Below the pieces are notes generated by a model that was not told the DNA's origin, did no database searches, and was given only the letters and a program-made list of their open reading frames with translations. DNA of 64,000 nt from Amoebophrya sp. A120 (lineage: Eukaryota > Protista > Dinoflagellata): positions 6,786,358 through 6,850,357 of the forward strand of contig CAJINV010000004.1 of the NCBI GenBank assembly GCA_905178155.1, in the 5' to 3' direction. Of this stretch, positions 3,065-64,000 are shown in pieces (position 1 is the stretch's first letter; every line of letters starts with the position of its first letter). A program made the position numbers and the translations under genes.

Positions 3065-6000
3065 ATGTCCGACGACGCCTCCGGGGCCGCACCAGCTGGT
3101 GGTGGCGGCGCCTCCGTCGAGATCGACGAGAAGGCCGATGATGGCGTGGCAAAATCCCAGTACCGCGTGGCCCGCATCCCCCCGCAGTACGAAGCTGCGC
3201 TCCCCAGTCTGGAGTACAAGCTGAAGACGATCGACCACTTTGATGAGTGTTTCGAGCTGGCCACCGCTGAATACAAAGACCCCGGGACCGGCCAGATCCG
3301 GCTGGTGAAGATATCAGATGCAAAAATGTCTGGGTCTGGAGGGATGCGAACTTGTGATGCGCATTTCACAACACAGACAAATCTCTCATGCATAGGCAGC
3401 AAAAGATGCGCACTTCCTGTCACCAAAATGGGGGATTTGTCAGGCGGATTAAGCAATGCGGAGGCTTCTCGAAATCTGTGGTGCTAGGGCTATTTCCATG
3501 ACAGACATTCTGGGTCATGCAAAAACTGCATGACAACTATCTGCATCCCTCCAGACCCAGACATTTTTGCAGTGCATAGAAGATCAAACGCTGCAAATTT
3601 GGCCCTTTGTCCCCCTGGATCCCGATCGCGAACAAGAACGACATCAAGCTGAAGGACCGGATCCGGTTCGTGCCGAAAAAGTCTGCGAAGGAGATACCAA
3701 ATGCAAAGATTAAAATGTCTGGGTCTGGAAGGGTGCGAACTTGTGATGCATACTTGGTGGATCACACAAAAATCTGTCATGCTTAGACAGCAAACGGAGC
3801 TCCTTTTCCTGTCGCCGAAAGAAGGTGTTTGTCATGCGGATTAAGCATTGGGAAACCGTCTCAAAACCTGTGATGCTAGGCCTTGCATGGCACACCTTCT
3901 GTGTCAAGCAGACACAGCATCACAAACCTCAGCAATGTTCCAGACCCAGACAGTTTTGCAATCCACAGGAGATGCAGGAGGACAAGTCTGCTGCCCGGGC
4001 CCAGCAGGTCCAGGACAAACTGGACTCGGTGCTGCAGTCCGACAGCGCGAAGGAGACGCGGTGGAAATATCTCGAGGAGGTGAAAGAACGCGACTTAGAG
4101 GAATACTACCGCTCCGACCGGATTGAGGTATAATGAAATTATCAAAAAACATAAAGTAAATAAATCAAGATGGTCATGTAGCTACGTAGTCCTTGACGAA
4201 CTTGTACTTGGTCTGCTCTAGAGCGTGCGCTTGATGTTGACAAACGTGGGTGTTTTCTATCTCCTGTTACCGTTACGTTAGTTTGCGATTCCGCTTGTTT
4301 CGCATCATTAAGTACACAAGTCACAAGATCTCACAATATCGATTAATCATTTTAATTTTTTGCACTTTGCTGTTCCTCGTCTCTACGAAACCCGGGTCAC
4401 AACAGAGGTCTTCCTGCGGGACCAAAGACTGGAGTTCTGCATGCGTATCTACGAGGAGGTCGATTTCTGGAGTCATTTGCGCATGCCGTTCAAGCTTCCC
4501 CGGCTGTTTGACGTGATCGTCCCGACGGACAAGACCAGTAAGAACGACCGGCTGGACATTGTCGAGGCCTTTCTGGTGTACGACTTGCCGCGGAGGCTTT
4601 CGCAAGCCGAGCTGTTCCACTTTATGTACCACATGCACCGGCAGAAATTCGCATTCGCGAAACACTTCTCCTCCTTTGTCAACAGCGTTTACTTAAACCC
4701 CATGACCGTTGTGCCCACCTGGAACCTGTCTTGCTACAATTTCGAGCTGGAAAAGCGGCAGCAGGAGCGGGCCGCCAAGGACCGCATTGGTGGCCTCGGG
4801 GGCGGTGGGGCGACTGCGAGTGCCAACTCGGCGGGCGGAATTACAGAGAGGCAAAGCAGTAGAGAACAACAACAGGCTGTCAAGGGGAAAGTGCCCGGCA
4901 AGGAGAAGCAAGCGGTGAAGAAGAAAAGCTCCACTGGACTACTGAATTCTAGCGGGAAGCTGACGCGGACGCCGGCTTTAGAGCAGAGCGACGACGGAGG
5001 TGCAAGTGGCTCTACTTCGTCCGGAATCAAAAGCGGCGGTACTTCTAAACACGGCGAGCCGGTGACCACCGAGTATCAGCAGCGGCGGTACGCACTGGAG
5101 CAGAAGCGGGCCGCCGCGAATTTGCAGCTCCTGAACAAAAAGATCCGTCCAAAGCACCCCTGCTGCAGCGCCATGCACCCGGACGACCGCTTTCTGTCAC
5201 CGGAACAGGTGGTTGGGGGGGAATTGTCCGACAAATCGGACGTTTTCGCCGGCGCGCTGTGCATCGCTGCGGACAAGCTGAATCGCGTGAAAGACAGTGA
5301 CGTGTCACTTGAGGAGCGGAAAGCCGCAGAAGTGCCGATCTGCTCGGGCCTGGAGCGTATCAAATGCAAAAATGTCTGGGTCTGGAAGAATGCAAGCCTG
5401 TCATGCTTGTCTGGCATGAATCGAGAATCTGTGTTGCATAGGCACGAAAAGGCCCTCTTACCTGTTATGCAAAAACGCAGTTTGCAATGCGGAATACGTC
5501 GTAAGACATGGGAGCCAAAATATTTGTCATGCATAGCGGCGTACTGCAGTCCGTCTACCATTCACTTTTAACATTACAAGTTTCGAGACCCAGACATATT
5601 TGCAATGCATACAGCCGCCCGTGGAGCGGTTGTGTATCGGGGCGGGGATTGCCATGTTCTACGACGAGAAAGCGCGAAAGCAGATGGAGGACGCGGCCAG
5701 CAAGAAGAAAAAGGGAAAGAAATTCGTCGACTTGGATGATGACGAGGAGAATGGCGAGAAAAAGCACACTTCAAAAAAAAACGGGGGAACAAGAAAAAGC
5801 GCGAATAGCAAGGCTGGTACAACAACAGACAGCTCATTATCCGGCGGGAAGCAGCTGCAAGGAGCAGGCAATGGTACTACTACAACTTCATCCGTGGGTG
5901 CAGAAGTCGACGAACAGACCACGGGTGGGATGAAGAAGGACGCAACAGAAGTAGGAGTAGTAGATGATCACGGAGGTGAAGTCGTTTCTAGTGCGGCCGA

Positions 6001-7556
6001 TCAAGAAGGCAGCACAAGAACTGCAACAGGAGGTGGGGACGAGAAGCTGACCGCGACAGAACATGAGCAACAAGGAGAATCATCCGCACCGCAACAAGGT
6101 GGAGACACGGACAGTGTGAAAAGAGCTAGCAGCACTCTAGACACCGTCGAAGAAGAGTCCGAGCGCGCCCGGCTGGAGGCGGTCCGGGGGATGGACAACC
6201 AGTATGGGGTGATCGTCCCCTTGGCGCAGGTATGCATTGCAAATATGTCTGGGTCTGGAAGGTTGCAACTTGTGACGCTGGCTTTGGATTCTGAAAAAGA
6301 TTTGTATTGCATGAACAGCAACAGAGGTGCAATTTTTGCTACGCGGAGAGGGCATTGCTCATGCGGTATGAGCATCAGAAAGCCCTCGCAGAATCTCTGA
6401 CGCTACAGCATGCATCACAGACCTCGTGGGCCATGCAAAATCTACATGACAAACTCCTGCACTCTTCCCGACCCAGACATATTTGCATTTGATAGCAGGA
6501 GGTGCACCAGAGAAGCACGTCGCCCACCAGTAAGGTGCCGGACAAGTTTGAAGAGATTAAGAAAGAGGAAAAGCGGAAACAGCAGGAAAAGGAAGAGAAG
6601 AAAAAAGCTTCTAGTGCTGGTAGTGCAAGTTCATCCGCAGGAGCAAAAACAGACACGGCGACGGATGTTGGTGGAGGAAGTACAAACAAGCAGCAGAACA
6701 AAGACAAAGAGAAAGGCTCATCGTCATCTGCAGGTGGAGCAAACAAGCTGTCGAGCTCTTCTTCATCTTCTACCGCAAATCTCCAAAGGCAAAATAGCAG
6801 TGCTAAGCCCTTTTACACCGCGGAGCAGCAGAAGTCGTTGGAGAAAATGAAGCAGTACTTCTGGATATCCTGTGTAAAAACGTACCCACCCCAGAGTTGT
6901 CATGCAATTCTGCATTCCAAAAAAGTTTCTCATGCGTAGCGCCATCAAAAGCATTTTCTAGTCGTGTTTTTCAATTTGTGATGCTATAATGAGCATGATA
7001 TACTAGATCTGTGATGCTGCTGAACTACCTAAACAGGATCACACTATGAGGAGAAACTTGTCATGCCAACCGACCAAAGCTGGCTGATTTGTCTAGCAGA
7101 TTTCCCATCTTGACTCTAGTGGTAGTGTGGGGACGTTTTTACAAATGATACTGGAAGTACTACGAGCCGCTGGAGTGGGAGGATATACTCACCAACAATG
7201 CGGTGTGGGACGCTTTGTCGGATCCCCGGCTCGAAAACTGCTTCAACTTGGACCCACGCGCGCGGCCGACGGCGTTAGAGATGATAAAGCGTTTCGACCA
7301 GAAATACGACCCGGATATCGAGGAGAAGGTCCGGTGCGAGAACCGGGGCATCGATTTTCACTCCTCGGACCTCGACGATAAGGACCTTCCGTTGGAATTA
7401 GCGCAGCGGATGGAAAACGAATGGGAGCGGGAAAAGTACAGCGACGCGGTCAATTTTCGCTTCCATTTTTTGCGGCTGGCGCAAAGGTTTCACGCTGATT
7501 ACTACGTGCCGCCGATCGAGGAATTCGATGAGAGGTGGCGGAGCCAGTTTGAATGA
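3065..7556 (+). CDS. Divergent protein kinase-like (possible pseudokinase), multi-exon
   Basis: Removing introners 3312-3578, 3695-3967, 5357-5612, 6231-6494 and 6866-7150 plus GT-AG intron 4128-4407 gives one frame. It contains kinase C-lobe-like motifs FLSPEQ..ELSDKSDVFA (subdomains VIII-IX) and ENCFNLDPRARPTALEMI (XI). No clear HRD or DFG. Confidence 0.65.
3312..3578. mobile_element. Introner-like element, TIR family A (TGCAAAAATGTCTGGGTCTGGA)
   Basis: TAT...ATA ends, TIR, direct repeat GAAGA on both sides; removal gives LVK-IKRCKF in frame. Confidence 0.9.
3695..3967. mobile_element. Introner-like element, family A
   Basis: Degenerate TIR ends, direct repeat GGAGA; removal gives KE-MQEDK. 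Confidence 0.85.
5357..5612. mobile_element. Introner-like element, family A
   Basis: GTAT...ATAC ends, 3-bp repeat AGC; removal gives GLE-PPVERL. Confidence 0.8.
6231..6494. mobile_element. Introner-like element, family A
   Basis: Direct repeat GCAGG (also creates GT-AG borders); removal gives LAQ-EVHQ. Confidence 0.9.
6866..7150. mobile_element. Introner-like element, family C (GTAAAAACGT.CCCAC)
   Basis: Direct repeat CTGGA; removal gives YFW-KYYEPLEW. Confidence 0.9.
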
Positions 7557-10990: not shown

Positions 10991-12531
10991 CTAGGGTGTT
11001 CTTGTACTAATGCACACTTGGTTCATCTTGATCACGACATCAAATCGAAAAGAAAGTTAACCACGCTCGTCATGAGACAACGAACGTAAATAAAAGCAAA
11101 ACTACTGTACCACGAAAAAGTTTTTTTTACGCAAGATGAACAAAATCGATAGGAATAAAAATCAAAAACAGAACCACGCCGGGCGCCCGCGCAACGGCGA
11201 GAAGCTCCAAGCCAAGGCCCCGGCAAAAGTGGAAAAGGTTCCGGTTTACACAACCGCGAAACTTGAGTCGGAGATGAAGGCCCGCTTCCAAGTCGTCGGC
11301 TTCACCCAGGCCTCGGCTTTTTGAGGTGCTGAAGCAAATTAGCTTTTTGTAGTAGAACAAGGGTATAAAAATACAGTACAACACGCACAATGAATTCTTT
11401 AACAGAGCAGGAAGTTGTCCCCTCACAAATCTTCCTCGTCTAGATAATCAAACAGCCCGCTTTCACATTTTACGTAGCCCGTGAACTACGTTGGTTCTTT
11501 ATTTGCTCACTGCAGTTCCCGTCGTCGGTGGGTCAGTGAAATAAAAAGACTAGCGGCGCATAATTTTTTCCTCGACAAAGTTTTGTGTAGTTCTATGAGT
11601 TTCACAACAGATTGTTTGATGAGCGTAAGTACCCCGACCGCGATGCATTCATGAAGCAGTGCAGCCACAACATCAAGTCGAAATTTTGTGACTACTCGAT
11701 AGAGTTAGAGGAAAAACACAATACAAAAGTTGTACTCACCTAAGCTAGCTTGGTACCCCCAGGCTGCGATTGACCATAAGCATAGCATTTTCATCACAAG
11801 AAGTCACACAGAAGAATATACTGGGCCAAGAAAGCTGCAACCCTGCTAATTGACGCGTATCCCCCTGTTCCTTGCGAAAATTACTAAAAGTTTTTGCGAA
11901 AAATATACCTTTGAGGTGCGTGTTGCGAAGATTCATCACGGCTCCTCATCCTCTGCGCTTCGGATTTTCCCATTGTGTACATCAGTTTGTTCGATTGCGA
12001 TTGCGATGGAGATTCAAACGATCTTCTCTCGTTTGATTTTTGCCGTCGAAAGGACGGTATCTCATGCTGCGAAATAACAAAGAAATGTTTATACTTTTAC
12101 CCGCATGGTCTTGGTCCCTCCGGATCCTTGGTGCTTGTCCCTGTTTGATCAGAAAGATTCGTAGAGCTTTTTCACGATCTTTTTGCTGTGGTGTGAAGAG
12201 ATCTGCATTGTCGTCGTTGCTTTTGCGCTGATGAAAAGTAAAAAAATTGTTGACGAAATAAATCCGGAGGCATTTTTGAAAGAGATGTAAGTAAGCAGAA
12301 GTGTGCAAGCCACTCTCTCATGCAGGTGCAGCAAAAGTTGGCCTCAAGCTCAATGGATACCTTGTGAAGATTTGCCGCACCACGGTGTTGTATCATATAG
12401 GGGAAAGAACTGAAAGTTTTAGCAGTCAAAAAAATGGCCGGGTGGGCAGTGGGTGGAACAACGTCAACGCCGGGCGCAGCTGGAGCACCGTGAACGACAC
12501 CAAAGGCTGCAACTCCAGGTTTTGCAGGATC

Positions 12532-15500
12532 ATGTTGTCGCCAGCTACACCGCCGGCGCCGAGGCCCACGAAGGCACCTCCCTTCGCGGGGGCCGACATC
12601 AGGCGCAACAAAAATGAAAAGAGCCAGATGTTGAAAAAGAACAACCCCGCGTCATCATGTACTTCTACTTCATCGCAACTACCGTTTCAGACACATCATC
12701 AAGTCGTCGTGCCGAACCACCACACCACCTGCGTCGCCCGGGTTCGTCCGGTGTCCGCCCAAGAGGAAGACAGCGACTTGATTGACGCCATCCTGGTTAC
12801 CCCGGAGTACGTATCCGGTGCAAAAGTATCGTACTAGTATCAACTGCATCAGAAATTCACTTGGCATTACAAATTAAAGTTGTAATGCGGATCTGCCTTA
12901 ATAAAGAGACTTGCAATGCATAAACGCAATTAGTACGAGTGCGATACTTTTGCAATGCATAGTACGTGCAGATTCATGGGCGGAAATTTGATTTGACGGA
13001 GGTGCTCGACGAGTACAGCAATCAGGATGATCTCTACTACCAGATCGGCGAACCCTGTGTGCAGCGCGTTTTGCAGGAACTGCAAACCTCCTCGCAGGAA
13101 GGGCAGGCGCTTGGTCAAGGACGAGGTAGTGTTGAAGCGCAAGAGAAGTTGTCAGGAACAAGCTCATGTCTCTCTTGCTCGTCAGATCGAGTAGAACCCA
13201 TTATCGGAGTTGGTGCCACGACCGCAAGGACCACGACACCGGAGGTCGTGTCTGCGTGCATTCTCGCATGTGGGGCTACTGGAACTGGGAAGACGCATTG
13301 TATCGTCGGGGATTTGTGGCGGGCGGACCCGGACGGAGTTGCACTATCATGTGCAGGAGCTAGTACATCAGAGGATAAGCCAAGAAGCAACATTAATGGC
13401 TGCAACACGACTTCTACGTCGGCGATGCTGGCAGATTTGGGAATCATGCCACGAGTCTGTTACAATCTGCTGGAGAAGCTGCTGACGGCGGAGCAACATC
13501 AATCTGGGTTCGAAGGCTCGCACAATGATATCAACAACGCAGCAGGTGAACGAGGTTATAGTGAGGCTGGTTTTCATATTTCCGCATCTGCAGAGGACAA
13601 TAAGAGAGACCTGACTGTCATGAATTCAGTGTCCAGCAGCATCAGCACCTCCGCAACGTCGATGTCGCCGAACAGCTCGTGTACTTCGTCTTCTAACCAG
13701 GTATTGAATAGCTGTGGAAGCATCAACCACAGCCGCCCCATTCAGATGAACCAGAGAACGCCATCACCGGCTGCACTGCATCAAGATGTTGAAACTCAAG
13801 CTTGTTCAACAGCCGGTCGGAACGGTGCAGCACGTGCTGCTGACATAACTACGACCCCGTCGTCCAATTATCGCACATCAAATGGTCGTAAGAATATTCT
13901 TCCACTCATGACTTCGGCATCGCTGGAGTGTTGCGAGCTATACAACGGCCAGGTGCGTGACTTGATCCGCGATCACGTGTGCGGGAGCAGTCTGAGCATT
14001 CGCGTGCACCCCGACCGCGGCGTTTACGTTGACGGGCTGAGCGTCAACAGTGTGCTGAGCGCGACCCACTGCTTAGAGTTGCTGAAAGAGGCAACGGAAA
14101 GGCGAACGCAGGTGAAACCAATAGAAGTAGGGTAGTGGGTGAGATGCATCAAAAGCAGTAAAAGTAGACTGACCACTGCAAGTCTGATTGATAGATTCAT
14201 CTGGCAGCATCGTTTTGAAAGATGAAAAAGCGGAAATTTCTTGCACTGTAGCTCGAAAATTTATATTTACGCTACATGAAGAATTGAAATTGATTTCCAG
14301 GTACCAACAAGCATAAACCCATCATCCAGTCGCTCGCATCTGATCTGCACACTGAAGCTATACGATTCGAAAGCGACAACTCCGGCCACAGCGGATTTTT
14401 CAACCCAGCATGATAAGTTTTCGCGAGGAGGGGGAAGTGGCATTGGCTCGTCATCGTCCGCTCCTTCGAGCAGTAAGAAAAATAAAATACCGCGTGCAGT
14501 GATTCAATTTGTCGACCTCGCCGGGCGTGAGCAATTGGGCGAAGAGCACGGGTATTGTAAGACCTTGAAGGGAGAGCGAAACCACATCAACACCAGTTTG
14601 TACCACTTAGGGCATTACGTGTCCGGTACCGGGATCTCAAAATTCCGCGACACGAAATTAACCATGCTGGTTTCACAGGTATAGTAAAGCCTAAAGCGCG
14701 ATGAACACTAGTAGTGCCTACTTAGGTGGCTCATTTGTCGGAGGATTTTGTGGTCTCCAAATTGTCGCTAGTAGCAAGAACGTAGTTGCGCCACGGTCTG
14801 TTCTTTGCTGCCGTCCAGGTATCGATCCATATATCTTCTACCCCAAGAAAAGAGTGGGAGGCGAATGCGAAGTCGAAAGCAGTCTTGATTGACTACGTAA
14901 TGACTCCACAACTACTATCCATCACAACTATTCAGACCCTCGCTAATCTGAACACGCGTCGGTACGTGATCGCCACGCTTTCTCCTCTCGATAAGCACCG
15001 GGCGGAGAACCTGGCGACGCTGCGGTTTTGCAAAAATTTGTCGGAGAAAGTGCTGTCTCTGCCCGTAAACCCGGGCACCAAGTTTGCGGATTTGGCTCAT
15101 AAGCATCTACACGATCATCCTGGTAGTGGTGCCGAGCCTCAGGGCAAAAATTTTCGTGCTGCAAGCAGGAACAGAGGGTCCGTGATTGCGCAGTTTCTGC
15201 AGGAGCAGAGTGCAGACGGACGAGCATCGTCGCAACCACGTACCAGTGATGTTTTCTTCTGGTCGTAATTTTTTGCAAGCTGATTTTTAGACAAAACACA
15301 CAATGTCGAGCGTGAGTTTCAATCAAAAACACCAGGTTCCTTCGAGCTCCCAACCGCGTCCTCGTTTTCAAAAAGAACGTCCAGCAAGAAGCGAAATAGA
15401 ATGGCAGGAACAACTGCTGGGCTCCTTGGCGTAAGTCCGAGCAGCAGTTCGCTTTTGCCGAAAAACAAGCCCAGTAAAAACAGCAGCTGTGGCACGCTGC

Positions 15501-42300: not shown

Positions 42301-42857
42301 CGACCGAGTTTTTCTTGACTTCGATCAGAAGATCTCCATTTAGAAAAACAAGGTCGTTTCGCTTCGTCCAGCTGTTTTTTTTTTCCAGCTGCACTGGATA
42401 ATGATCGATGATCCCACATGGAGGTTAGTCGTCGTGTTTTTGCATTCGGTGGCAACTTCGAAAATAAATGCGGTTTTTTGTTGAAACTATACTGCTTGGT
42501 TGTGGTCGTACCAGTTTTCTACTTTATTCTAAGTACTACTGTCGTTCTTCACTGCTGGTGATCTGTACGCGGATTCATTTACGATTGGGACGGGTCTCGT
42601 CTTCGTGGTCCTGTTCCAAGGAGCTGCTTGCTTACTTGTGGATGCTGCTACCCCTTCATCTATGCTGGAATAAAAAAAGAGAATTTGTTTATCATGTTCC
42701 CGCATCATTAGGAGCAAAAGTCATGAGAAATAAAATGAAAGCAAGTCGTCGACGTTCTTGCGGTCCTCCAGGAAGCTGTGCTGGTAGGTGGGCCCTGCTG
42801 AGAAGAAGAACAGCACGTCCTGCAGCATTACAGTCACCTGCCACGCCGCGCCGAACA

Positions 42858-48702: not shown

Positions 48703-48811
48703 TATCCAGGAAAAAACACCCATCTCCATCCAATTTGTCATGCAAAACATACATAATTTCCAGCGTTTGCCATGCAAAACATGGATGGGGATGGGTGTTT
48801 TTTCCTGGATA
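48703..48811. mobile_element. Miniature TIR element outside coding sequence
   Basis: 109 bp; ~30-bp TIR TATCCAGGAAAAAACACCCATC.CCATCCA; internal TTTGTCATGC; no clean flanking repeat. Confidence 0.8.
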
Positions 48812-48873
48812 ATTTCGGTCGGCACGCGACCCGTAGGCGAAGTGTCGACCGTAGGTGGGTAACTGCGGCCAGC

Positions 48874-53400: not shown

Positions 53401-56400
53401 AATCATCGAGGCAAAACATGTCGGGCTTCAATCTCGCTGGACAACAAGCAGGGACCAGTAAAGGAAGCACAAATTCCTCCAGCGGGATCATGACCCAGCT
53501 GCAGGTGAAGGACAATAACCGCAGTACGTCCAGCTTACTGCACCTAGTGCAGCAGAACCGTTCCTTCTATCGCGGGCCGCACACCTCCACGTCGCAGTTA
53601 CGGTTGTCGAGGAAAAACGGGTCGTCGAGTTCGAGGCTTTCGGCGTACAGCAGAACGAAAGTCTTCCGGGAACAGAGACCGAGCCCGCTAGCGAATCCGT
53701 CGGACAATCTATTGAAAGGAAAAACTCCCCCTTCCCATACTAAAAAGGGATACTCCTGAATAAAATTTGTGATGTTGCTGATTTGTGGCCACAAATCTTC
53801 TCTGTATTGCACGAAGGCAACGCCAGAGACTCCGCTGCGCTGTCGTGCAGGCAGTTTGTAATGCTGTATCGCCTGCAGAGGATATGCCAGTCTTGCTACG
53901 CGCCTACACCAAAACGCTCCTATAATTCAGGCTGTGCATCTGCCTGCAGTCCTCTACTGCAAGACAGAGCCGATTTGTGTATACAAATCCCGCATCACAG
54001 ATTTTCATTTTGATATGGGGAGGGGAGATTTTTCATTTTGATACAATCTGAAGTCGGAAATCTCCTGGCTCTACGACACGGTGGCGTCTCTGGATAACCG
54101 TAAGGGACTACATTCATACTGACTTTTGAAAAAAAAACATGATTTTCGTCTTCTGGATCTGGATCTAGCATGATAGTCAGTGGAGAAACACCAGGAGAAC
54201 CAGAACGACCCGCCTCGTGTGATGTGGTCGTGCTAGTACAACTGCAAAAATATTACAAAATTCCAAACCACTTTTATCTATATCAGGTCTTGCCAATGCC
54301 ATCGTCTCTCACCGTGGGTTTCATGGCAATGACGACGCCCGACCGGTGGAGAATTCCCTCCCGGCCTACGAGCTCGCTTGGTCGGCCGGTTTACCCTATT
54401 GCGAGTGCGACGTAATTATGCACTGCAAAAGTATTATACTCGTACTAATCGCGTTCATGCATTACAAATTTCTTTCTTAAGTCCAATCCGCATTAGCATT
54501 ACAAGTTTCACTTATCACGTTGAGGAGATTTGTCATGCGGTTTATAGTACTAGTACGATGCTTTTGCATGATTTCATAGTAATCTGCACCCGGGACGGAA
54601 AAATCATTCTCACCCACGACAGCACTTTGAAAAGGGTGGCTCTCCTCGACTCCCCCCTCGCCGGCCCGGTGGACATTGTGAACGCGGATGGGACGACCAC
54701 GGCTGGGCAAAACACAAAAGCGAAAAGTAAGCTGTATCAAGACGTCGGGGAACTCGATTTCCGGCAAATTGTGAAAACGCCGTTGCTATGCACTGCAAAT
54801 ATGTCTGGGTCTGGGAGATTGCGAGATTTGTCATGCTTGTCTCACATGACTCTTGAATCTGTAATGCATGAGCAGGAAGGCAGCCTCTTACCTGTCATGC
54901 AAAAAGGCAGTTTGTCATGCGGGAGGCGAAACACATAGGACCTCAGAAACTTGTCATGCGTGGCTGCATAACGCAGTGCGCCCACCATTCACACACTGGC
55001 ATCACAAGTTTCCAGACCCAGACATTTTTACAGTTGATAGTTACGCTCGGGCGTCAGACCACCGTTGCTCACCGAAGTTCTCCACTCTGCCGCGGCGATT
55101 TATCCTGTGCAAAAGTATCGTATTCGTATAAATGCATTACAAATTCCCTCAGCATGAGAAATAAAATTTGTAATGGGGATTTACCTTAAGAAAAGGATTT
55201 GTAATGCAAGACTTGCATTTATACGAGTGCGATACTTTTGCACGGGATACGATTTCTGACAATGCGAAACTGATCATCGAGCTGAAGTACGGCAACGTGA
55301 CCACGAATCCGAACCCGCGCGGCAGCCCACCCAGACCGAGAAGCGGCAACTTGAATAAGAAGGAAATAAATGGTGGAAATAATGACAGCAGTACTAGTAG
55401 GTCGACCTCGAAAACTACAGGCAACATCAATAATAAGCTCGGAAAGAAGCTGTACTACACGCTAGAGCCCATGGGGCTTGCCGCGCAGCCAGTGAGTGGT
55501 CACAATTTACTGCAGCAGCCCAGCTCTTCTAGCTCTTGCTGTAGCACGCCAGACCACAAGTCAAGTTCCACGCCCTCCAGTAATATCATCTCGGAAACCC
55601 GGTCGAGCAGCAAAAAGTCTTCCTCCCGAAGTCCGACTTTTTCTCCCACAAATTTGGCGGGGATAGGGGAAGACAAAGAAGTTACCTCGCCGCCCCCATA
55701 TGGGAATAAAACAAGTGCAAGTCGCGGTGACCAACCGAGCGAATTCATGCTAGAAGACGAAAATGGCACGATGACGCTTGGAACATCTTCAAAAAACCTG
55801 GATCCTGATCCATTTGGCGCTCCTTTATCAAATGCACTATCGAAGCAAATCACGATCACATCCCCCGACCTCGATCCGAAGGACGGGAGTTTCCGACTCG
55901 AGGAAAACGAAATTACCGCTTCGACCGCTATGAAATGCAAATATGCTTGGGTCTGGGAGATTGCGAGATTTGTCATGTTAGTCTGGCATGACTCCGAACT
56001 CTGTATCGCGTGGCCGCGAAGAGCTCCTCTTGCCTGGCATGCAACAACGCAGTATCTCATGCGGAGTACGCAACTCAGAACCACGCCAAAACTTGTCATG
56101 CTGGGCAGCGCATTGCAGTGTTTTCACTACTTCCTTCCTTGCATCACGAGTTTCCAGACCCAGACATGTTTGCAATGCATAATCGCCACGGGCCTGCACA
56201 TGCCAGACGACCACTCGACCTCAGTGACCGTCTCGATCTCGGGACAAGACGCCGAGGGCAGTAGCGTCAACGTAAACCTGAACGATGACGACGGCTGCAG
56301 CAGCTCCATCTTTGCGGCCTTTGCGACGCGCGCTGCCGAGCAACAACAAAATAATACGTCAAATCTGTCTTCGCCCGGGATGGTGACCGTGTACCGTTTG

Positions 56401-58272
56401 ATAGAGCTCTTCAAATATCCTGTGCAAAAGTATCGTACTCGTATTGCAATCATGCATTAAAGGTTATTGAGCATTACAAATTTCATTTCTCAAGCTGGGG
56501 AAATTTGTAATGAATTAATACGAGCAGGAGCGAGTGCAATACTTTTGCAATTCATATCAAACAGGACTTGTCGCTGGTGAAGTCTGTCGGCGTGATTATG
56601 AGCTTTGACCTGTACGTCATGGGCGAACTGGCGAAGCTGTGGGCCGCAGAGGTTTGACTTCTGGTTTATGATGACACTCCTGGTAGATTGTTTTTCGCAT
56701 TTGCATACGCTGCACTTTCGTGTAGTAGAAAATGAATTTATTCGGTACGAAAACGTACCTACTATCTGAATCAAAAAAGTAAATGCTCCACACAAGAACA
56801 GCCGTTCTTAGAACGGCTGTAGTGCATATAAAACTTCCACTTCATCTCCTCTCAGATCCAGCCCCTCCTCGACGAGCTCAACGGTGGGTCTCCCGACGTC
56901 TCTATGCAGGCTCCCGAAAACAATAATACGAACACCAGCATCAGCCGAACGAGCGAGCTGAGCCTCTCCCCGAAGCGAAAAGTTGTTCCGAATGAACGAT
57001 CGACGGAACAGTTCGCGCCAGATAGCAGGTTGCGGGATTTCCTAGTCGAGACGTCGTATGCATTGCAAAAAATGACTGGGTCTGGAAGATTCTGAGACTT
57101 GTCATGCACGGTTTGTGTGAGACATGATGTCTGTGATGCATGCCATAGCATCACAGGTTTTTTGAGGGATTCTTGATGCCTATTCCGCATGACAAATGCC
57201 CTCCCCGCGTAGCAAAAATCAGAATCCTTTTGCTGCTTATGCAACACAAATTTTTTAGACATCCAAATGCAGCATCACAAGTTACATCCTTCCAGACCCA
57301 GACACTTTTGCATTCGATACGTCGAATCCAGATCCAACTCCCGGAAAGCTCCCGTTAGGGCTCCCTTTAGGGGTATCCGAGAGCAGCGCGATTAGTACCG
57401 GGCACTTATCCCCCGCGAATAATATGCCGCTGAGCCCGAGTCCGGCCGTGCAAGCGGCCGCAGCGGTGAATTTGAATTTCGAAAAAACCAACACAACTTT
57501 GATCACGGAGGTATCCTGTGCAAAAGAAGTATCGTACTCGTATTGCAATCATGCATTACAAATCTTGTTCTTAAGCTAAATCCGCATTACAAATTTTATT
57601 TCTCATGCTGCGGAAATTTGATGTGATGCATTTATACGAGTACGATACTTTTGCAATGCATAGCACGAAGACACGAACAATTTAAACCCGAACCAGATCC
57701 AGCGGCCAGATTTTCTGCTGTTGACCAACTCCCATTTGGAATTGGAAAAGCCGCAAATTTCCCCGGATCTCTATGGCGAAATTCTGTACTTGAACGCGAA
57801 AAATTTCAGCTACCGGAAACACGTGAAACCGCTTTTGCGGGTTACCCCCAACATCTCCCTGGACGGAATTTACATCCAGAAAACGCCAACTCTGTCCACC
57901 GAGTATGCCACACAGGTCCGGGAGATCGCAAATCATTGCATTCTCGGGGTGTGGTTGGCGCACGACGATGTAGATACGTACCACGAAACGAAGAAGCTGG
58001 TGGAACTAGGCGCGAGCTACGTGAATACGGATTTGCCGCTGGATTGGAACCGAGGCAGGGAAGACGGCCCGCCGGGGCGGTGGGACTGGAGTCTGAGCGA
58101 GCGGTCCGGGGGCTCCAGTAGTCGGGCGGCGGGCGGTGCTGGAAATAGCATGCTGGGTGGCGGAGTGGTGGCGGGACCCGGCATGTTTGGTGCGGGTATG
58201 AGCTCATTCACGCTAGGGGGAAAGTCACAGCACCATGCCAGTGGCGCGTATACGGATGGGGAGTTTGCATAG
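50434..58272 (+). CDS. SPX-domain glycerophosphodiester phosphodiesterase (SPX-GDPD fusion)
   Basis: SPX: MRFGQHI..WAEYYCDYELLKQII and KGELQKVSKWF. GDPD: IVSHRG, ENSLPAYELA, ECDVICTRDGKIILTHD, PPLLTEVL, LIIELK, IMSFD, VNTDLP. 11 introners plus GT-AG introns 53013-53186, 54100-54286, 56652-56855. Confidence 0.9.
50793..51069. mobile_element. Introner-like element, family A
   Basis: TIR; repeat degenerate (AAGCC/AGAGC), but removal of the element plus 5 nt is in frame. Confidence 0.8.
51148..52711. mobile_element. Long (1.56 kb) introner-like element, family C ends
   Basis: Repeat AGGTA/AGGTC; removal gives ELQKV-SKWFMEK of the SPX domain. Confidence 0.85.
52814..52963. mobile_element. Introner-like element, family B
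   Basis: Direct repeat GCTGT. Confidence 0.9.
53710..54043. mobile_element. Introner-like element, family D (opposite orientation to 46504-46826)
   Basis: Direct repeat CAATC. Confidence 0.9.
54417..54578. mobile_element. Introner-like element, family B
   Basis: Direct repeat GTAAT; splits ECDV-ICTRDG. Confidence 0.9.
54787..55039. mobile_element. Introner-like element, family A
   Basis: Repeat GTTGC/GTTAC. Confidence 0.9.
55101..55249. mobile_element. Introner-like element, family B
   Basis: Direct repeat CGATT; similar to 60814-60959. Confidence 0.9.
55929..56181. mobile_element. Introner-like element, family A
   Basis: Repeat ACCGC/ATCGC. Confidence 0.85.
56416..56556. mobile_element. 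Introner-like element, family B
   Basis: Direct repeat TCAAA. Confidence 0.9.
57057..57319. mobile_element. Introner-like element, family A
   Basis: Direct repeat CGTCG; reverse-orientation relative of 6231-6494. Confidence 0.9.
57512..57662. mobile_element. Introner-like element, family B, GT-AG compatible
   Basis: TIR; GT(57511)-AG(57663) splicing is in frame; no 5-bp repeat. Confidence 0.85.
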
Positions 58273-59518
58273 TAGCTCGACGTTGTCACTCTCACTTGTG
58301 GGAGAGCACTGGCAGGAAGGGTAAAACAGAAAAAAAACGGATGTTTTCTGCCGGGAAATAAGTTGTACTAGATGTACATCCAAATGAACAACGTTTGTCA
58401 TTTTTTTTTGGGACTCCAACACACAACACATCGAAAGACGTATTTTATGATACAAGAGAAAAACACATCACTTGTACTACCTGTATTTGGATTCTGTCTC
58501 GAAAAAGTAGCGACATCATTAATTTTCCTGTTTGGTTTTTTCGGTGTATAGCTACACTAGATTGAAATTTGAACTTTTACTTTTTGAAACAACTCCTGCT
58601 TGTCAATAGAAATAGTCCAGAAGCTGAGCGGCCAAGCGCTCGTGTCAATACAAGAACACAACACTCTAACAATAAGAATAACACGTAAGAACTTCCGGAT
58701 TGATGATTTTTTTAAACGATAACGAACAATCGCTGTTATTAGGTAAATACAACTTTAGAAAAAGTCTGCTAAAGTCAGCATCATCGGGACCGAAATGCAA
58801 TAGACTATCGAAAGAGGACACTTCTTGAAATAAATCAACTTTGACGTTACCTACTTCACCTCCCGCTTGTACTTCATCGTGGTTTGATTTTGAATATCTG
58901 CTAGTTTTTAGAGCAGTTCCAATACAGATTGCACAGCGACGCTATTGCCGAGTGAGTGGATTGCGCTAGCGCTGGCGCACAAAGGAGCGCGTTGATGCCG
59001 GCGTATTTTTCTACTTAGTTTGTTCTCCGTTCTGGCCCTCTGCCACGGACGGATAAAGCAAACATGACCATGTTGACCTTCATTCGCCTAGTACAACTGC
59101 CCTGTTGCAGCGGGATCACTACTTTCACTACCTGAGAAGCGATTCTACAGAGGTATAAAATTCTAGTTTTTGTGGCCGATGACGATGAGTCGCAAGAACT
59201 CTTCTGAGATTCTTTCGCCTTCCTGCTCCCAACGCTGCACCTGGCGGTCTTATCTTATGGGGAGGTACTAGTAGTAACCAGCTGTACTCGTCGTGGTGCA
59301 CCACGCCACACTACTTCTAGCCCTCTTCTTCACTGCTGGAAGATGTTACGAACCGAGTCCAACGGAGAGTCGAGTCCCGAGCTTTCGATTTTCTAAATAT
59401 CTTTTCAACTCTTCGGAGCCTATACTATTGAAAAGAGATAATTAGGCACTAGCTCATTGCTGCATTTTTCCTGATCGCGGTTGTATTGATTTCATTTCTA
59501 CTCACGACGCACGACAAG

Positions 59519-62500
59519 ATGCCAGCGAACACGGGCGGCGGGAAAGCGGCGAAGGCCATTCAGGAGGTCGAGAGCAAGGCGCCAGAGGGACCGCCGGAAG
59601 CCGCGAAAACCGCAACAAAAGCAGTCCCGATGAAGACCGCGGCCATGAAAACTGCTGGTGCTGCACCTGCGTCGAAACAGAAACTAGCATCAAAAGAGGA
59701 CAACAGCACAAAAATTGAAGCAAAAACAACAGCGTCTTCTTCGTCTTCCTCGTCCGGCGCGACGACCACAAAGAGTAGAACTACAACTAAGCAACCTACC
59801 AACACCAAGATCAAGAAGAAACCACAGGACAACGTCGAAAAAGAAAATGAACAACAAAAACCCGACATGCACCTTGCCCAAGCGGGAAACACGGGTCGGA
59901 AGGAGCCGCGTCGGGGGGCTTTGACCCAGAAAAAAACCGCTGCATTCGGCAAGATGGGCGGCAGAGCGCAGGCACTGGATGCGTTGGAGCGGGAAAACTT
60001 TGACGACTTGTGCTTCGCGATGGAAAAAGGTACTTCATCACTCGAATACATGTTTGGTACAGCTTAAAAACAGAAGTGACAGTCAATTCATGCTGTAGTT
60101 CGAGGGTGAAGTAAAACAGGACACGTTTACAGTTTCTGCTGTAACAAGTAGTAGAGAAGTCTGTCATGCACGAATCGTGAAATCAAAATTTCTATTGCAG
60201 TATCAAAAACCAGGTATGACCGAGAAGCAGCGCTGGGAGTTTTTGGTAGAACAGGTAAAGGACATCAAGTTTATGAAGTCCTTATCCTGTGCAGAAGTAT
60301 CGTACTCGTTGTATTGCAGTCATGCATTAGCATTACAAATTTTTTTCTCAAGGTACATTATCCGCATTGCAAATTTTTTCTCATGCTGAGGGAATTTGTC
60401 ATGCATTTTTTATACGAGTGCAATACTTTTGCAGTTCATAGTCCTGGACCCGAAACAATGTGTTTCTCGACACGAAGGAAGAAGCACAAAACGCCGCCAA
60501 GCTCGGGATCGTATGAATTGCAAATATGTCCGGGTCTGGAGACCTGTGATGCTGAATTGAGCATGATTGAAGCGCTTGCAATGGCAGCCAAGCATGACAA
60601 GTTTTTGCGACGCGTTCTGATGCCTAGCACGCATTATTTGCATGACAAAGGAAGCTCCTCTTTTGCTGCTCATGCAACACAGATTTTCCAGGAATGCAAG
60701 ACACGCAACACAAGTTCCACGTGTTCCAGACCCAGACATTTTTGCATTTGATAGATCGGCCAGGAAGACAATGAGGGAAAAGAGTCGTTTGACTTGGAGG
60801 GCCAGGAGGTTGATATGACTTTCAAAAGTATCGTACTCGTATAAATGCATTACAAATTTCCTCAGCATGAGAAATAAGATTTGCAATGCTGATTTACCTT
60901 TAAGAAAAATATTTGTAATGCATGACTGCGATACGAGTGCGATAGTTTTGCACAGGATCGTTGACGAAAAGGAGCAGTTTGAAGACGAGCTAGAGGAAGA
61001 CCAACAACTCCAGAACGGCGCCGAAGAGGATGATGACGAAAAACAAAACGAGAAAGAACCCTCGAAAATGAATAACAAGAAGAAGAAACTGGGGCCGCGA
61101 TTGCAACAGGGTTACGATGTCACGAAGTTGCGAGAATTTCTCAACACGGGGTTGGTCTCCTGCCGACCCGTCGGGAAGTTGGGACAGACGATGAATCAGC
61201 CGAGCGGGATCAAGATGAGTTTTCTGATTAACGCAATTATGAAGACCGCCACCACGCGCGAACCGTTTACCTGCACCGCAAAGGATTGGTGGTACTAGTA
61301 CTAGACATGGCGCGCTGTGGTTTCTTTGTGATGTTATTTCACCTTCACAGCTTGGAAAAGAAAACTGCAGCACTCTGATGTCCTCGCATCTGGATATGCA
61401 TCTGCCATGCTGCATTTCATGTGATATACGCTTTATTCTAATACGTACGTAGAGTGACATCCTCATCGATTTATACTGATTTCCCTCAAAAGGAAAACCC
61501 AAGTATGAGTAAAATCCATGCTCTACTGTCAGGTACAGTTCTTGCACCATCAACAAAGGCGGCATTACCCGCGTACACTGCGACGCCGGAAACCTCGGCC
61601 CCTCCCGCCTGTTTTGCTTCGGTTGGGGCTTCATTGGCGGACAGACGTGGGTCATGGCGGAGGGGCATGAGGTCGACGACCCAACAGTAAAAATCGAGTG
61701 GGTGCCCACTTTTGCGGGCAACTGCAAGTCCGCAGTCCGAAACCGGGCGCAGGAGGTCAGGAAAATGCAAGACGCGGAGCGGGAAGAAAAGGCGGGCCGT
61801 GCTACGGGTGGCCGGGGGAAAATAAACTCCAGCAACCAGCACGGGGCCGCTGCTTCTGGAGGTGTGTCGTCGTCGAGTAGCAGCTCATCTACTGCGAATA
61901 AAAATGGAAAAAGCAACAACATTAACAAGCCAACCGGATTGACCGCCATTACCAGCAGCAAGAACAGTGCGCACAAACTGGAAGCGATTCGCATCATGAA
62001 GCTGGACACAAAGCAGATTATCACGGCCGACGTAGACTATCTGGATGAGGGAGGATCCTTAGCCGGGATCGCCCTCCCCTTCAAGCGAGTAGACTGCCGG
62101 AACAAGATCGCTGATTTTAACTATCCTCTGTGCAAAAGCTGTATTGCGCTCGCACTAATTCCAGGCATGAAGCACAAATCTTGTCTTTCAGTGAAAGCCG
62201 CACTACAGATTTCAGTTGTAATGCAGCTGAGAAAAGTTGTCATGCGATAGCGATTTCTACTACTAGTGAAACTGCAGCGCGATACTTTTGCAATGCATAT
62301 CAACGGCATCCTGCCCCATTGCACCACCCCTGTGTTTCCCGCCACCTGGGCAAAGGACCGAAGTCTGCGGCCCAAAGAAATCCAACACGTGGACGACCTG
62401 GAGTTTTGCGACTCGCCAGAGATGGCGCAGCTTCTCCTCGACGCGGCCAACATATCAAGCGTGAAAGTGTCTGGGTCTGGAAGATTCTGAGACTTGTCAT

Positions 62501-64000
62501 TCATGTTTTGCATTGGCCATGATGTCTGTGATGCATGCCCTAGCATCACAGATTTTTTGAGGGCTTCGCGATGCCTATTTATTTTCCGCATGACAAATTC
62601 CCTCTCCGCGTAGGCAATCGATAGCGGTTTTGCAGGTGCAGCCGGGTGGTAGTTAGGAAGTGGGCCGCGTCTCCACCTAGGGGTATCGGCAGAGGCTAAA
62701 TCTGTTCTAACGCCCAGGTATTGGCAGAGGCTAAATCTGTTCTAACGCCGACCCGCCAGGAGTTAAATGGTACTACTACTACTACGCGTAGCAAAAATTG
62801 TATTCCCTCTGCTGCTCATGCAATGCAGATTTTTTTGGAATCCAAATTCAGCATCACAAGTTGCATTCTTCCAGACCCAGACATTTTTACATTTGATACA
62901 ACAACCGGAAAGACGACCAGTTCCAGGAGTGTTGCCGCATGGTCGCGGTGTGTTACCCACACGGGTGCGCGCTCCCGTCGAAAGCCGTGCCGGAAAGCGT
63001 CGCCAAAGTTGTCACGTTCGGGTATGAGACGATGGGGCCACGTATGCAAGGCAGATGAAATAGTCGCGTAGTTCTTCCCGATTGTTGTCGATTTCTTGTG
63101 ATGCATGAGGCGCGCAAAAAAATTAAAATATGAATTTGAAAGCTACCTCTTCTTGTTCTGTAATGCAATCGGACATTACAACACACACGACAAATCGGCT
63201 CCACGAAGATGAACACGCGGATTTCGTTTTTCCCTCCCACACCAAACCTCCACGAAGCTCGGCTCGCGATGGACACCTTCCGCCGCGCGACGAACATTTA
63301 CGGGCAGTTAGCCATTGCAGTGACCGACGAGAACGGAAACGAAATCATCAAAAACTACCGCGGGACGAAAAATTACATCCGGTCAGACAAGTCCAAAAAC
63401 GACTTCGCCAGAATCATCGAAATTACGAAGAAAAAACTCGGCCCGAACTTCAAGGAGAAGAAGGACGTCGTGGGCTCCTGCCCCAACAAAGAGGATTGCG
63501 AAGCGTATCCGCTCCACGTCTACGACTGGATGTTTGAACTGCACGGCTTCAGCGATTGCTCCCGGAAAGCGCAACTCCAGGAGGGGAACGTCCGGATTAC
63601 TTGGATGACCGAACAAGCGGGTGGAGAAGCAGAAGCAGGCGGTGGTACTGCTGCTGCTGTTGTCAACACCGAGATGAACGACAAGAAGAACGCCGAACAA
63701 GAAGAAGCAGGAGCTGGTCCTGCACCTCCTGCTGCCCCGACATCAACTACTACAAAGATGAAAACGAAAAAGGCGGACCGTACCGGGAAGGAGGAGCGCG
63801 AGGCGTCCAAGCGACATGGGCGAGGAAACCTGCGGCACCTAGAAGGCCGAACGTTGACCTGGGTGAAGGGCCGGGAGTTGTGGGGGAAGGGGGAGAGGAG
63901 CTACGGAAAACTGGGTTTCCTGCCCTTCCGAGACTGGCCCAAGCACTGGTGGTATCAACTGCAAAAATGTGTGGGTCTCGAAGAATCCGAACTTGTGATG
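59519..64000 (+). CDS. TET/JBP-like 2OG-Fe(II) dioxygenase (3' end beyond window)
   Basis: Reassembled: YSSCTINKGGITRVHCDAGNLGPSRLFCFGWGFIGGQTWV (HxD at 61576-61584), DFNGILPHCTTP (His 62317), CRMVAVCY (Arg 62936). Introns 60030-60213 and 61292-61532 plus 6 introners. Confidence 0.75.
60283..60440. mobile_element. Introner-like element, family B
   Basis: Direct repeat GTCCT. Confidence 0.9.
60512..60753. mobile_element. Introner-like element, family A
   Basis: Direct repeat GATCG. Confidence 0.9.
60814..60959. mobile_element. Introner-like element, family B
   Basis: Direct repeat GTTGA. Confidence 0.9.
62122..62299. mobile_element. Introner-like element, family B
   Basis: Repeat TTAAC/TCAAC; splits DFN-GILPH. 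Confidence 0.85.
62453..62898. mobile_element. Introner-like element, family A, carrying a nested insertion
   Basis: Direct repeat CAACA; collinear with 57057-57319 except for a 171-bp insert. Confidence 0.9.
62614..62784 (+). mobile_element. Nested short retroposon-like insertion
   Basis: 7-bp target duplication CGCGTAG (62607-62613, 62785-62791), (TAC)n 3' tail, internal ~33-bp tandem duplication. Confidence 0.7.
63953..64000. mobile_element. Left end of family A introner (truncated by window)
   Basis: TATCAACTGCAAAAATGTGTGGGTCTCG...ACTTGTGATG. Confidence 0.8.

What the first reader, a model, noticed from the sequence alone, without database searches (positions are those of the whole stretch)
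3312..63999. About 40 TIR plus direct-repeat insertions act as non-GT-AG introns in six genes
Seen: the elements begin TAT and end ATA, carry TIRs from several unrelated families, and are usually flanked by a 5-bp direct repeat that differs at each site. Deleting the element plus one repeat restores frame and conserved motifs (GDPD ECDV-ICTRDG, SPX ELQKV-SKWF). Most borders cannot be read as GT-AG. Known: introner elements with inverted and direct repeats are described in Amoebophrya, but the excision machinery and the mobilising enzyme are unresolved. Inference: MITE-like DNA transposons are removed precisely by a non-canonical splicing system, or conceivably excised at DNA level as with ciliate IESs.
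Basis: partly seen in the sequence, partly recalled or inferred. Interest (0 to 1): 0.85.

Follow-up and report, generated by a model that had tools for sequence, protein, structure and literature searches.

The report
Transposon introns cut at fixed offset
Six genes of a likely Amoebophrya marine parasite carry 41 already described hairpin-ended transposon copies, 29 of which are missing together with five flanking bases from spliced transcript assemblies, and every informative junction fits one cut position that ignores nearby normal splice signals, which likely points to a modified spliceosome.

Summary
Confirmed but already described. The window holds 40 complete genic elements, one cut by the window end and one intergenic copy. 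They run TAT…ATA with terminal inverted repeats, and 28 of 40 have an exact 5-bp flanking repeat. They match the published introner elements of Amoebophrya A120 (PMC7789003).

Spliced contigs from four runs of one sample skip element plus 5 bases at 10 of 10 elements laid at base resolution. Length sums support 19 more. A genomic run keeps the elements, so removal is likely at RNA level.

Added to the paper, which calls the sites variable: all 9 informative mismatched repeats fit one cut, 1 base before and 4 after the element. An in-frame GT…AG at 37481-37643 is bypassed. Both orientations are removed. A relative's copies show no drift to GT-AG.

Best guess: a relaxed spliceosome reads N-UAU and an A seven bases from the end (A never changed in 210 copies; p=0.06, suggestive only). 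The families are related, not unrelated. No transposase was found. This scan reported the same system and register on other pieces of this genome.

The parts
3065..7556 (+). Host gene 1, unknown family; 5 elements and 1 canonical intron
   Evidence: 968-aa open frame after splicing
3312..3578 (.). Element, family A; repeat GAAGA exact
   Evidence: frame only
3695..3967 (.). Element, family A, TAC..ACA ends; repeat GGAGA exact
   Evidence: frame only
5358..5611 (.). Element, family A; repeat GAGCG/CAGCC; the offered GT..CAG (5357-5614) would break the frame
   Evidence: 549 aa against 968 aa; no RNA joint
6231..6494 (.). Element, family A; repeat GCAGG exact; the only one that is GT-AG at the fixed register
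   Evidence: frame only
6866..7150 (.). Element, family C; repeat CTGGA exact
   Evidence: frame only
12300..20905 (+). Host gene 2, kinesin motor domain; 4 elements; start and canonical introns modelled, approximate
   Evidence: PF00225 E 8e-16
12812..12961 (.). Element, family B; repeat GTACG exact
   Evidence: frame only
16981..17238 (.). Element, family A, reverse orientation, ends ATC; repeat CAGAT exact
   Evidence: frame only
17317..17471 (.). Element, family B; repeat AAATC exact
   Evidence: frame only
18694..18945 (.). Element, family A; repeat TGGGA exact
   Evidence: frame only
36374..39394 (+). Host gene 3, unknown family; 7 elements and 1 canonical intron
37059..37369 (.). Element, singleton; repeat CTTGC exact
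   Evidence: RNA joint skips 316 = 311+5
37482..37642 (.). Element, family B; repeat ACCAG/GCCGA; intron 37481-37646 fixed uniquely, GT..CG
   Evidence: RNA joint 37480>37647, no ambiguity, 4 of 4 runs
37793..37954 (.). Element, singleton; repeat GACAG/AACTG
   Evidence: RNA joint skips 167 = 162+5, register 4-5
38076..38225 (.). Element, family B; repeat AGACC exact
   Evidence: RNA joint skips 155
38301..38461 (.). Element, family B; repeat CCGGC/CTGGC
   Evidence: RNA joint skips 166, register 2-5
38900..39109 (.). Element, singleton; repeat ACCAG exact
   Evidence: RNA joint skips 215
39136..39335 (.). Element, singleton; repeat CCCGG/CGTGG
   Evidence: RNA joint skips 205, register 3-5
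42687..48166 (+). Host gene 4, nucleotide-diphospho-sugar transferase domain; 8 elements and 1 canonical intron
   Evidence: PF03407 E 2e-6
43155..43434 (.). Element, family C, ends AAA; repeat GGTCG exact
   Evidence: RNA joint skips 285
43497..43649 (.). Element, family B; repeat TGGAT/TGGAC
   Evidence: RNA joint skips 158, register 0-4
44432..44638 (.). Element, singleton; repeat TGGAA exact
   Evidence: RNA joint skips 212
44991..45226 (.). Element, singleton; repeat CGGCA exact
   Evidence: contig length sum
45281..45437 (.). Element, family B; repeat GGAGC exact
   Evidence: contig length sum
46179..46454 (.). Element, family A; repeat GAAGA exact
   Evidence: contig length sum
46504..46826 (.). 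Element, family D; repeat ACCTG exact
   Evidence: contig length sum
47208..47415 (.). Element, singleton; repeat AGTAG exact
   Evidence: contig length sum
48703..48811 (.). Intergenic element, TIR 20/20, flanks ACTCC/ATTTC; not an intron
50434..58273 (+). Host gene 5, SPX plus GDPD domains; 11 elements and 3 canonical introns
   Evidence: 1174-aa ORF; weak Pfam hits per exon
50793..51069 (.). Element, family A; repeat AAGCC/AGAGC; GC..AG option not used
   Evidence: contig piece ends 50791, register 4-5; length sum
51148..52711 (.). 1564-nt element, family C ends with about 1.2 kb of extra interior; repeat AGGTA/AGGTC; also readable as GT-AG
   Evidence: length sum; no long ORF
52814..52963 (.). 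Element, family B; repeat GCTGT exact
   Evidence: length sum
53710..54043 (.). Element, family D, reverse to 46504; repeat CAATC exact
   Evidence: length sum
54417..54578 (.). Element, family B, inside the GDPD motif; repeat GTAAT exact
   Evidence: length sum
54787..55039 (.). Element, family A; repeat GTTGC/GTTAC
   Evidence: length sum
55101..55249 (.). Element, family B; repeat CGATT exact
   Evidence: length sum
55929..56181 (.). Element, family A; repeat ACCGC/ATCGC; stop-free in frame yet removed
   Evidence: piece ends 55925
56416..56556 (.). Element, family B; repeat TCAAA exact
   Evidence: length sum
57057..57319 (.). Element, family A; repeat CGTCG exact
   Evidence: length sum
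57512..57662 (.). Element, family B; repeat GGAGG/GCACG; in-frame GT..AG 57511-57663 not used
   Evidence: piece starts 57667, register 4-5
59519..64000 (+). Host gene 6, unknown family, runs off the window; 6 elements
   Evidence: 872 aa open to 63952
60283..60440 (.). Element, family B; repeat GTCCT exact
   Evidence: length sum
60512..60753 (.). Element, family A; repeat GATCG exact
   Evidence: length sum
60814..60959 (.). Element, family B, ends ATC; repeat GTTGA exact
   Evidence: length sum
62122..62299 (.). Element, family B; repeat TTAAC/TCAAC
   Evidence: contig piece ends 62118 (5' side only); frame
62453..62898 (.). 446-nt element, family A with an extra interior; repeat CAACA exact
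   Evidence: frame only
63953..64000 (.). 5' end of a family A element, cut by the window end
   Evidence: D3

Best explanation
These are non-coding transposon copies of the Amoebophrya A120 introner type that are missing, with exactly five flanking bases, from spliced transcript contigs, likely because a relaxed spliceosome cuts one base before and four bases after each element instead of reading GT-AG. Shown: the anatomy (TAT..ATA inverted ends, 5-bp duplication), the removal of element+5 in 29 of 40, one register that fits all informative junctions, and removal in either orientation. Inferred: a transposase acting in trans inserts them and duplicates 5 bp without sequence preference. In the pre-mRNA the intron reads N-UAU(C/G)...AUA-NNNN. 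The UAU would stand in for positions +2 to +4 of the organism's GUA donor with the first base free, the inverted ends would bring the borders together, the A at -7 would serve as branch point, and the 3' cut would be set by distance from it. Because the ends are symmetric, any insertion in either orientation would be spliced without changing the protein.
For: RNA joints skip element+5 at 10 of 10 elements in 4 of 4 runs of one sample, in contigs that also skip two GT-AG introns. Five gaps in three contigs equal the predicted sums exactly (615, 822, 3282, 1032, 986). Register 4 is unique at 37482 and lies in every interval: 37793 (4-5), 38301 (2-5), 39136 (3-5), 43497 (0-4), and 50793, 57512 (4-5), 55929, 62122 (2-5) from piece ends; chance under a random register is about 0.005 after allowing any of six registers. 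In-frame GT..AG pairs at 37481-37643 and 57511-57663 are bypassed. Family B copies in opposite orientations are all removed. In 189 oriented copies of a relative, G at +1 (63) and AG at the end (16) are no commoner than at neighbouring positions. A at -7 changed in 0 of 210 oriented copies while its mirror T at +4 changed in 5 (p=0.06). Eleven of 12 modelled canonical donors start GT followed by A, G or T with GTA in 9. Precedent: Giardia introns have 5' VTATGTT and a branch point at an invariant distance from the 3' site (PMC6679479, passages). A120 keeps most spliceosomal proteins and U2, U4, U5, U6 (PMC7789003, passages).
Against: No lariat, branch or snRNA pairing was observed; the spliceosome step is inference. 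The -7 asymmetry is not significant (p=0.06 strict; 9 against 2, p=0.065, in a looser set with false pairs). Two relative copies have a changed +2 T (AAT, CAT; orientation weakly called at some window sizes). There is no U2-type branch consensus around the A. U1 snRNA was not detected in A120 (PMC7789003). Only one junction fixes the register alone; all RNA contigs come from one sample, are labelled RNA only as a guess, and hide minor isoforms. The paper describes the splice sites as variable relative to the hairpin. Two precisely removed elements (38076, 43497) have weak predicted end pairing (0.0 and 3.5 expected pairs). No transposase was found.
Confidence: 0.6

Rival explanations
1. Same elements and same fixed register, but a spliceosome-independent endonuclease and ligase read the terminal hairpin and make a staggered cut, as suspected for euglenid nonconventional introns that are released as circles.
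For: Outer bases are free, both orientations work, 34 of 39 elements have at least 8 expected end pairs against at most 6.8 in 12 canonical introns, U1 was not detected (PMC7789003), and euglenid TIR/TSD introns leave as circles (PMC11282704, section 6).
Against: 38076 and 43497 are removed precisely despite weak predicted pairing. Changes at +4 are tolerated while its partner at -7 never changed, which suggests a base is read, not only a pair. The UAU lines up with the canonical donor.
Confidence: 0.32
2. The elements are excised from DNA at some life stage, like ciliate IESs, so the transcribed template already lacks them.
For: The ends resemble transposase substrates and one repeat copy is left. 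The joint list of the genomic run was cut (1763 rows not shown), so rare DNA junctions are not excluded.
Against: Eight listed single-copy contigs of run X1 (depth 43-49) run from flanks into elements and keep a canonical intron, while X3-X6 contigs lack both elements and canonical introns. The parasite is not known to have a separate somatic nucleus (recalled).
Confidence: 0.04
3. The genes are pseudogenes, or the elements are removed through nearby cryptic GT-AG sites.
For: 13 of the 40 entries have some frame-keeping GT..AG pair near the borders. 11 of 40 elements have no full RNA check here.
Against: 29 of 40 are removed as element+5; only 3 of 40 are GT-AG at any register; offered pairs are bypassed at 37482 and 57512.
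Confidence: 0.02

Closest known systems
Introner elements among the non-canonical introns of Amoebophrya sp. A120 (Farhat et al. 2021, PMC7789003; read: abstract, sections 11 and 16, passages, supplement legends)
   Same: Inverted repeat starting TAT, seven variable bases, then AAA; 3-5 nt direct repeats at the borders; about 240 nt; RNA-supported removal; no internal transposase; many families.
   Different: The paper gives repeats of 3-5 nt and splice sites variable relative to the hairpin. Here the duplication is 5 bp and one register (-1, +4) fits all informative joints. The paper found no family relation; here all families share end consensus and one internal motif.
A120 introner families in Gozashti et al. 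2025 (PMC12130899; passages and 21 of 58 A120 rows of supplement 8)
   Same: Mostly 'TIR DNA, superfamily unknown', mixed splice dinucleotides, duplications called at 2-5 bp.
   Different: Border mechanisms are called inconsistently between families (co-opt both, co-opt 5', co-opt 3'); no single register is stated in the rows seen.
Euglenid nonconventional introns (PMC11282704, section 6)
   Same: TIR hairpin, TSD-like repeats, no GT-AG, likely MITE origin, staggered pairing of the ends.
   Different: Other end sequences (CAG at +4-6, CTG at -8 to -6), and circular products shown there; products are unknown here.
Fritillaria borealis non-canonical introns (PMC11282704 section 6; bioRxiv 10.1101/2025.08.15.670264, abstract only)
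   Same: MITE-derived introns removed by a modified U2 spliceosome.
   Different: Prevalent AG-AC and AG-AT ends there; here both outer borders are free.
Giardia and Trichomonas introns with fused branch point and 3' site (PMC6679479, passages)
   Same: Donor VTATG with a relaxed first base; fixed branch-to-3' distance, comparable to the proposed A at -7.
   Different: They keep CTRAC and a final AG and are not transposon copies.

Membership tests
Amoebophrya A120 introner elements | Inverted repeat starts TAT, seven variable bases, then at least three A | tested here: met
   TAT in 39 of 40; A at positions 11-13 in 35, 35 and 38 of 40 5' ends
Amoebophrya A120 introner elements | 3-5 nt direct repeat at the borders | tested here: met
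   exact 5 bp in 28 of 40, partly decayed in 12
Amoebophrya A120 introner elements | Removed from transcripts with non-GT-AG borders | tested here: met
   10 direct joints and 19 by length sum; 1 of 40 GT-AG at the fitted register
Amoebophrya A120 introner elements | Repeated families without an internal transposase | tested here: met
   families of 13, 15, 3 and 2 plus singletons; longest element has no frame above 153 aa
Amoebophrya A120 introner elements | Window comes from strain A120 itself | not testable with these tools
   no whole genome is held; the assignment rests on the motif description in PMC7789003
MITE (non-autonomous TIR DNA transposon) | TIRs, fixed-length target duplication, high copy number | tested here: met
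   265 of 552 TIR pairs in a relative have an exact 5-bp repeat, 24 another length, 263 none; genomic depth over elements in the thousands against about 45
MITE (non-autonomous TIR DNA transposon) | Autonomous partner with the same ends, or empty orthologous sites | tested here: inconclusive
   none seen in the window or in 148 loci; no locus matched the window's exons
hAT superfamily (hAT5-like) | hAT transposase acting on these ends | not tested
   only a lead from earlier scan notes and one terminal tag in supplement 8 of PMC12130899 (fam135)
U2-type spliceosomal intron | GT-AG or GC-AG borders | tested here: not met
U2-type spliceosomal intron | Lariat with a branch-point A | not testable with these tools
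   only indirect: A at -7 unchanged in 210 of 210, p=0.06 against its mirror position
Ciliate-type IES | Removed from DNA | tested here: not met
   genomic contigs keep the elements; rare excision not excluded
Euglenid nonconventional intron | Released as full-length circles | not testable with these tools
   no raw RNA reads of this strain were available

The most novel reading that the evidence does not exclude
The A120 lineage runs a second splice code in which a symmetric transposon end supplies both the donor (N-UAU) and the branch A, and the 3' cut is set by a seven-base ruler with no AG. Every cut-and-paste insertion with a 5-bp duplication, in either orientation and up to kilobases long, thereby becomes a scarless intron.
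Probability: 0.45. Interest if true: 0.8.

Novelty: already known. Interest (0 to 1): 0.48.

Why it matters
The elements are published, but how they are spliced is an open question. A fixed register turns 'variable borders' into an exact prediction: the intron is N-UAU...AUA-NNNN, with a candidate branch A at -7. That can be tested directly by lariat or circle sequencing and would separate a relaxed spliceosome from a new nuclease-ligase route. It also gives a simple rule for annotating tens of thousands of such introns. I did not find the register in six literature searches or in the passages read; figures and 37 of 58 supplement rows were not seen.

Tried and rejected
No whole genome is held, so no genome-wide transposase search was possible. 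The joint table was swamped by repeat matches from X1, so only its pieces table was used. Both lays are spent: genes 1 and 2 (9 elements), 62453 and the 3' side of 62122 have no RNA check. First frame tests for genes 1-3 used wrong start frames and were redone. My list had 39136 off by one and lacked 37793, which the RNA joints revealed; later calls use the corrected list. The 1564-nt element has no long ORF and its interior was not searched against families. Three long TIR pairs in the relative (972, 1104, 6197 nt) showed no obvious transposase by eye; the 6.2-kb pair probably spans several elements and was not scanned against Pfam. No Rfam family in the window. A test for drift of decayed repeats towards GT or AG in 54 copies showed no direction. 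A search for hAT5 with 5-bp duplications gave listings only; none was read. Empty orthologous sites were not found because no locus overlapped the window's exons.
Full report
OBSERVATION. Repeat scans and the RNA joints give 40 complete elements of 141-446 nt (one of 1564 nt) in six + strand genes, one more cut by the window end (63953), and one intergenic copy (48703-48811). A final scan of the masked window found no further TIR pair. Of the 40, 39 start TAT and 36 end ATA; 28 have an exact 5-bp flanking repeat and none an exact 6-bp one. The repeat sequence differs from site to site with no fixed base. In the real window 21 TAT..ATA pairs have both a TIR of at least 14/20 and an exact 5-bp repeat; ten shuffles gave 0 each.

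FRAME. Removing element plus 5 bases, with modelled GT-AG introns, opens frames of 968, 2342, 513, 1125, 1174 and 872 aa. Removing 0, 1, 3, 4 or 6 extra bases shortens the frame for 38 of 40; 38900 and 39136 lie too near the gene end to tell. Plus 2 is equivalent to plus 5 by frame, so frame alone cannot fix the length. Keeping the element shortens the frame in 37 of 40; 55929 is stop-free in frame. Single exons hit kinesin, SPX, GDPD and nucleotide-sugar transferase models, the SPX and GDPD hits below the curated cut-offs (7 of 13 pieces had a hit). GDPD profile positions continue across element 54417.

RNA. Eleven runs were listed. On 36300-44750, contigs of X3-X6 (one sample; RNA by guess) skip exactly element plus 5 at 10 of 10 elements in all four runs, with no other letters, and also skip two GT-AG introns. 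On 43001-63000, pieces of three X3 contigs leave gaps of 615, 822, 3282, 1032 and 986 bases that equal the sums for 20 elements plus 5 each and five canonical introns; this adds 19 elements, for 29 of 40. Caveats: the 615 sum assumes that the 3495-nt record is the same contig; I placed the acceptor of the canonical intron 53099-53269 with the help of the remainder, then checked that it is AG and keeps the frame; sums could hide compensating shifts. Run X1 behaves as genomic DNA: its eight listed single-copy contigs (depth 43-49) extend from flanks into elements and keep intergenic DNA and a canonical intron. Removal is therefore likely at RNA level.

REGISTER. With an exact repeat the cut can slide over six positions; decayed repeats pin it. 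At 37482 the joint is 37480 to 37647 with no ambiguity: the intron begins one base before TAT and ends four bases after ATA (GT..CG). The other joints allow registers 4-5 (37793), 2-5 (38301), 3-5 (39136) and 0-4 (43497). Piece ends allow 4-5 (50793, 57512) and 2-5 (55929, 62122), if placed leftmost as. All nine contain register 4; three further mismatched repeats (5358, 51148, 54787) have no base-level read. Under a random register the chance is 0.0008, or 0.005 allowing any of six. At register 4 the first two bases are GT 13, AT 11, CT 10, TT 6 and the last two take 15 different values; 1 of 40 is GT-AG. In-frame GT..AG pairs at 37481-37643 and 57511-57663 and a GC..AG option at 50793 are bypassed. 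At 5358 a GT..CAG pair would cut the frame to 549 aa.

FAMILIES AND ORIENTATION. Interior BLAST groups the elements into families of 13, 15, 3 and 2 plus 8 singletons, and all four families occur in both orientations within + strand genes. Family B copies of both orientations are among the direct joints. All families share TAT-N7-AAA-like ends, and a 9-base internal motif has 122 of its 127 window hits inside elements (40 of 41 carry it), so they look like one related group.

A RELATIVE. A TIR pattern found 151 stretches in metagenome contigs; 148 loci (0.56 Mb) were held, all of one assembly. Best matches to window elements reach 93% identity; none overlaps the window's exons. Of 552 TAT..ATA pairs, the longest exact repeat is 5 in 265, absent in 263 (decayed or mispaired) and another length in 24. 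I oriented copies by codon usage, which called 35 of 40 window elements correctly and none wrongly. Among 189 oriented copies with exact repeats, G at intron +1 (63) and AG at the end (16) are not enriched over neighbouring positions (41-66; 9-15). Among 210 oriented family members (170 relative, 40 window), terminal changes were +2: 2, +3: 2, +4: 5, -7: 0, -6: 3, -5: 5; +4 against -7 gives p=0.06. A looser set of 289 gave 9 against 2. This test followed a lead from an earlier scan note. It is suggestive only, and the two +2 changes count against an absolute U.

STRUCTURE. 34 of 39 folded elements have at least 8 expected pairs between their first and last 20 bases (median 15.3); 12 canonical introns reach at most 6.8. 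The 37482 region folds at z = -3.4. But 38076 and 43497, both removed precisely, score 0.0 and 3.5, so a stable hairpin may not be required, or the prediction fails there.

MECHANISM. Insertion: likely cut-and-paste by a transposase in trans, duplicating 5 bp; none was found here, and the A120 paper reports none. Removal: I favour a relaxed spliceosome (0.6) that reads N-UAU as a donor lacking the G and uses the A at -7 as branch point with a fixed distance to the 3' cut. Giardia offers a precedent with VTATG donors and an invariant branch-to-3' distance (PMC6679479, passages). The main rival (0.32) is a hairpin-reading nuclease and ligase, as suspected in euglenids (PMC11282704, section 6). 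DNA excision and cryptic sites are unlikely.

WHAT IS KNOWN. Farhat et al. 2021 (PMC7789003; abstract, sections 11 and 16, passages, supplement legends) describe these elements in A120: TAT start, seven variable bases, three A, 3-5 nt direct repeats, RNA-supported, MITE-like, U1 undetected, splice sites variable relative to the hairpin. Gozashti et al. 2025 (PMC12130899; passages and 21 of 58 A120 rows) class most as TIR DNA of unknown superfamily; two supplement files were not searched. PMC12005148 (passages) reports canonical introns and U1 in another strain. PMC12787238 (passages) added nothing on splice sites. The strain assignment of the window is inferred from the motif match. Earlier notes of this scan report the same system and the same register on other pieces of this genome; I had seen the fixed-register lead, and the result here rests on different elements.

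VERDICT. Real, and a member of an already described class. The added value is the fixed cut and the bypassed GT-AG pairs, which I did not find in the papers read and which make the unknown splicing chemistry testable. Interest 0.48.

Noticed in passing
window 23222-26554 and 27248-28513: Two long uninterrupted ORFs (1110 aa, with cytosine methyltransferase-like motifs FAGIGG, PCQ and ENV, label recalled and not scanned; and 421 aa) carry no element, while the six host genes hold 41 in about 21 kb of exon. About 23 kb of intergenic DNA holds one. Insertion or retention looks strongly uneven (gene bounds approximate).
   Followed up: partly
window 48703-48811: Intergenic element with a perfect 20/20 TIR but only 3 of 5 matching flank bases, just upstream of a transcribed ORF at about 48874.
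   Followed up: partly
window 51148-52711: 1564-nt element with family C ends and about 1.2 kb of extra interior, removed by length sum; part of the interior (1071-1278) matches locus L053 at 75%, and genomic depth of 230 at 51672-52338 suggests a few copies.
   Followed up: partly
window 39339-42215: RNA contigs continue unspliced for about 2.8 kb past the stop of gene 3, and a separate deeper contig covers 40065-42223 in X5 and X6: a long 3' UTR or a second transcript.
   Followed up: no
window 22287-22329: A probable GT-AG intron of a small gene near 21913-22440 has a 43-nt match to the interior of element 51148: possibly a decayed element turned canonical.
   Followed up: partly
window 55929-56181: Element plus repeat is 258 nt and stop-free in frame, so retention would add 86 residues instead of truncating; it is removed in the contig.
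   Followed up: partly
window 30525-30890 and 9660-9990: Intergenic stretches with short tandem-like repeats in inverted arrangement; GC-rich intergenic blocks at 29001-30000 and 34001-35000 (70-72% GC).
   Followed up: no
L018:505-1608, L068:6024-6995: Long TIR elements (1104 and 972 nt) with exact 5-bp repeats in the relative's contigs; no obvious transposase frame.
   Followed up: partly
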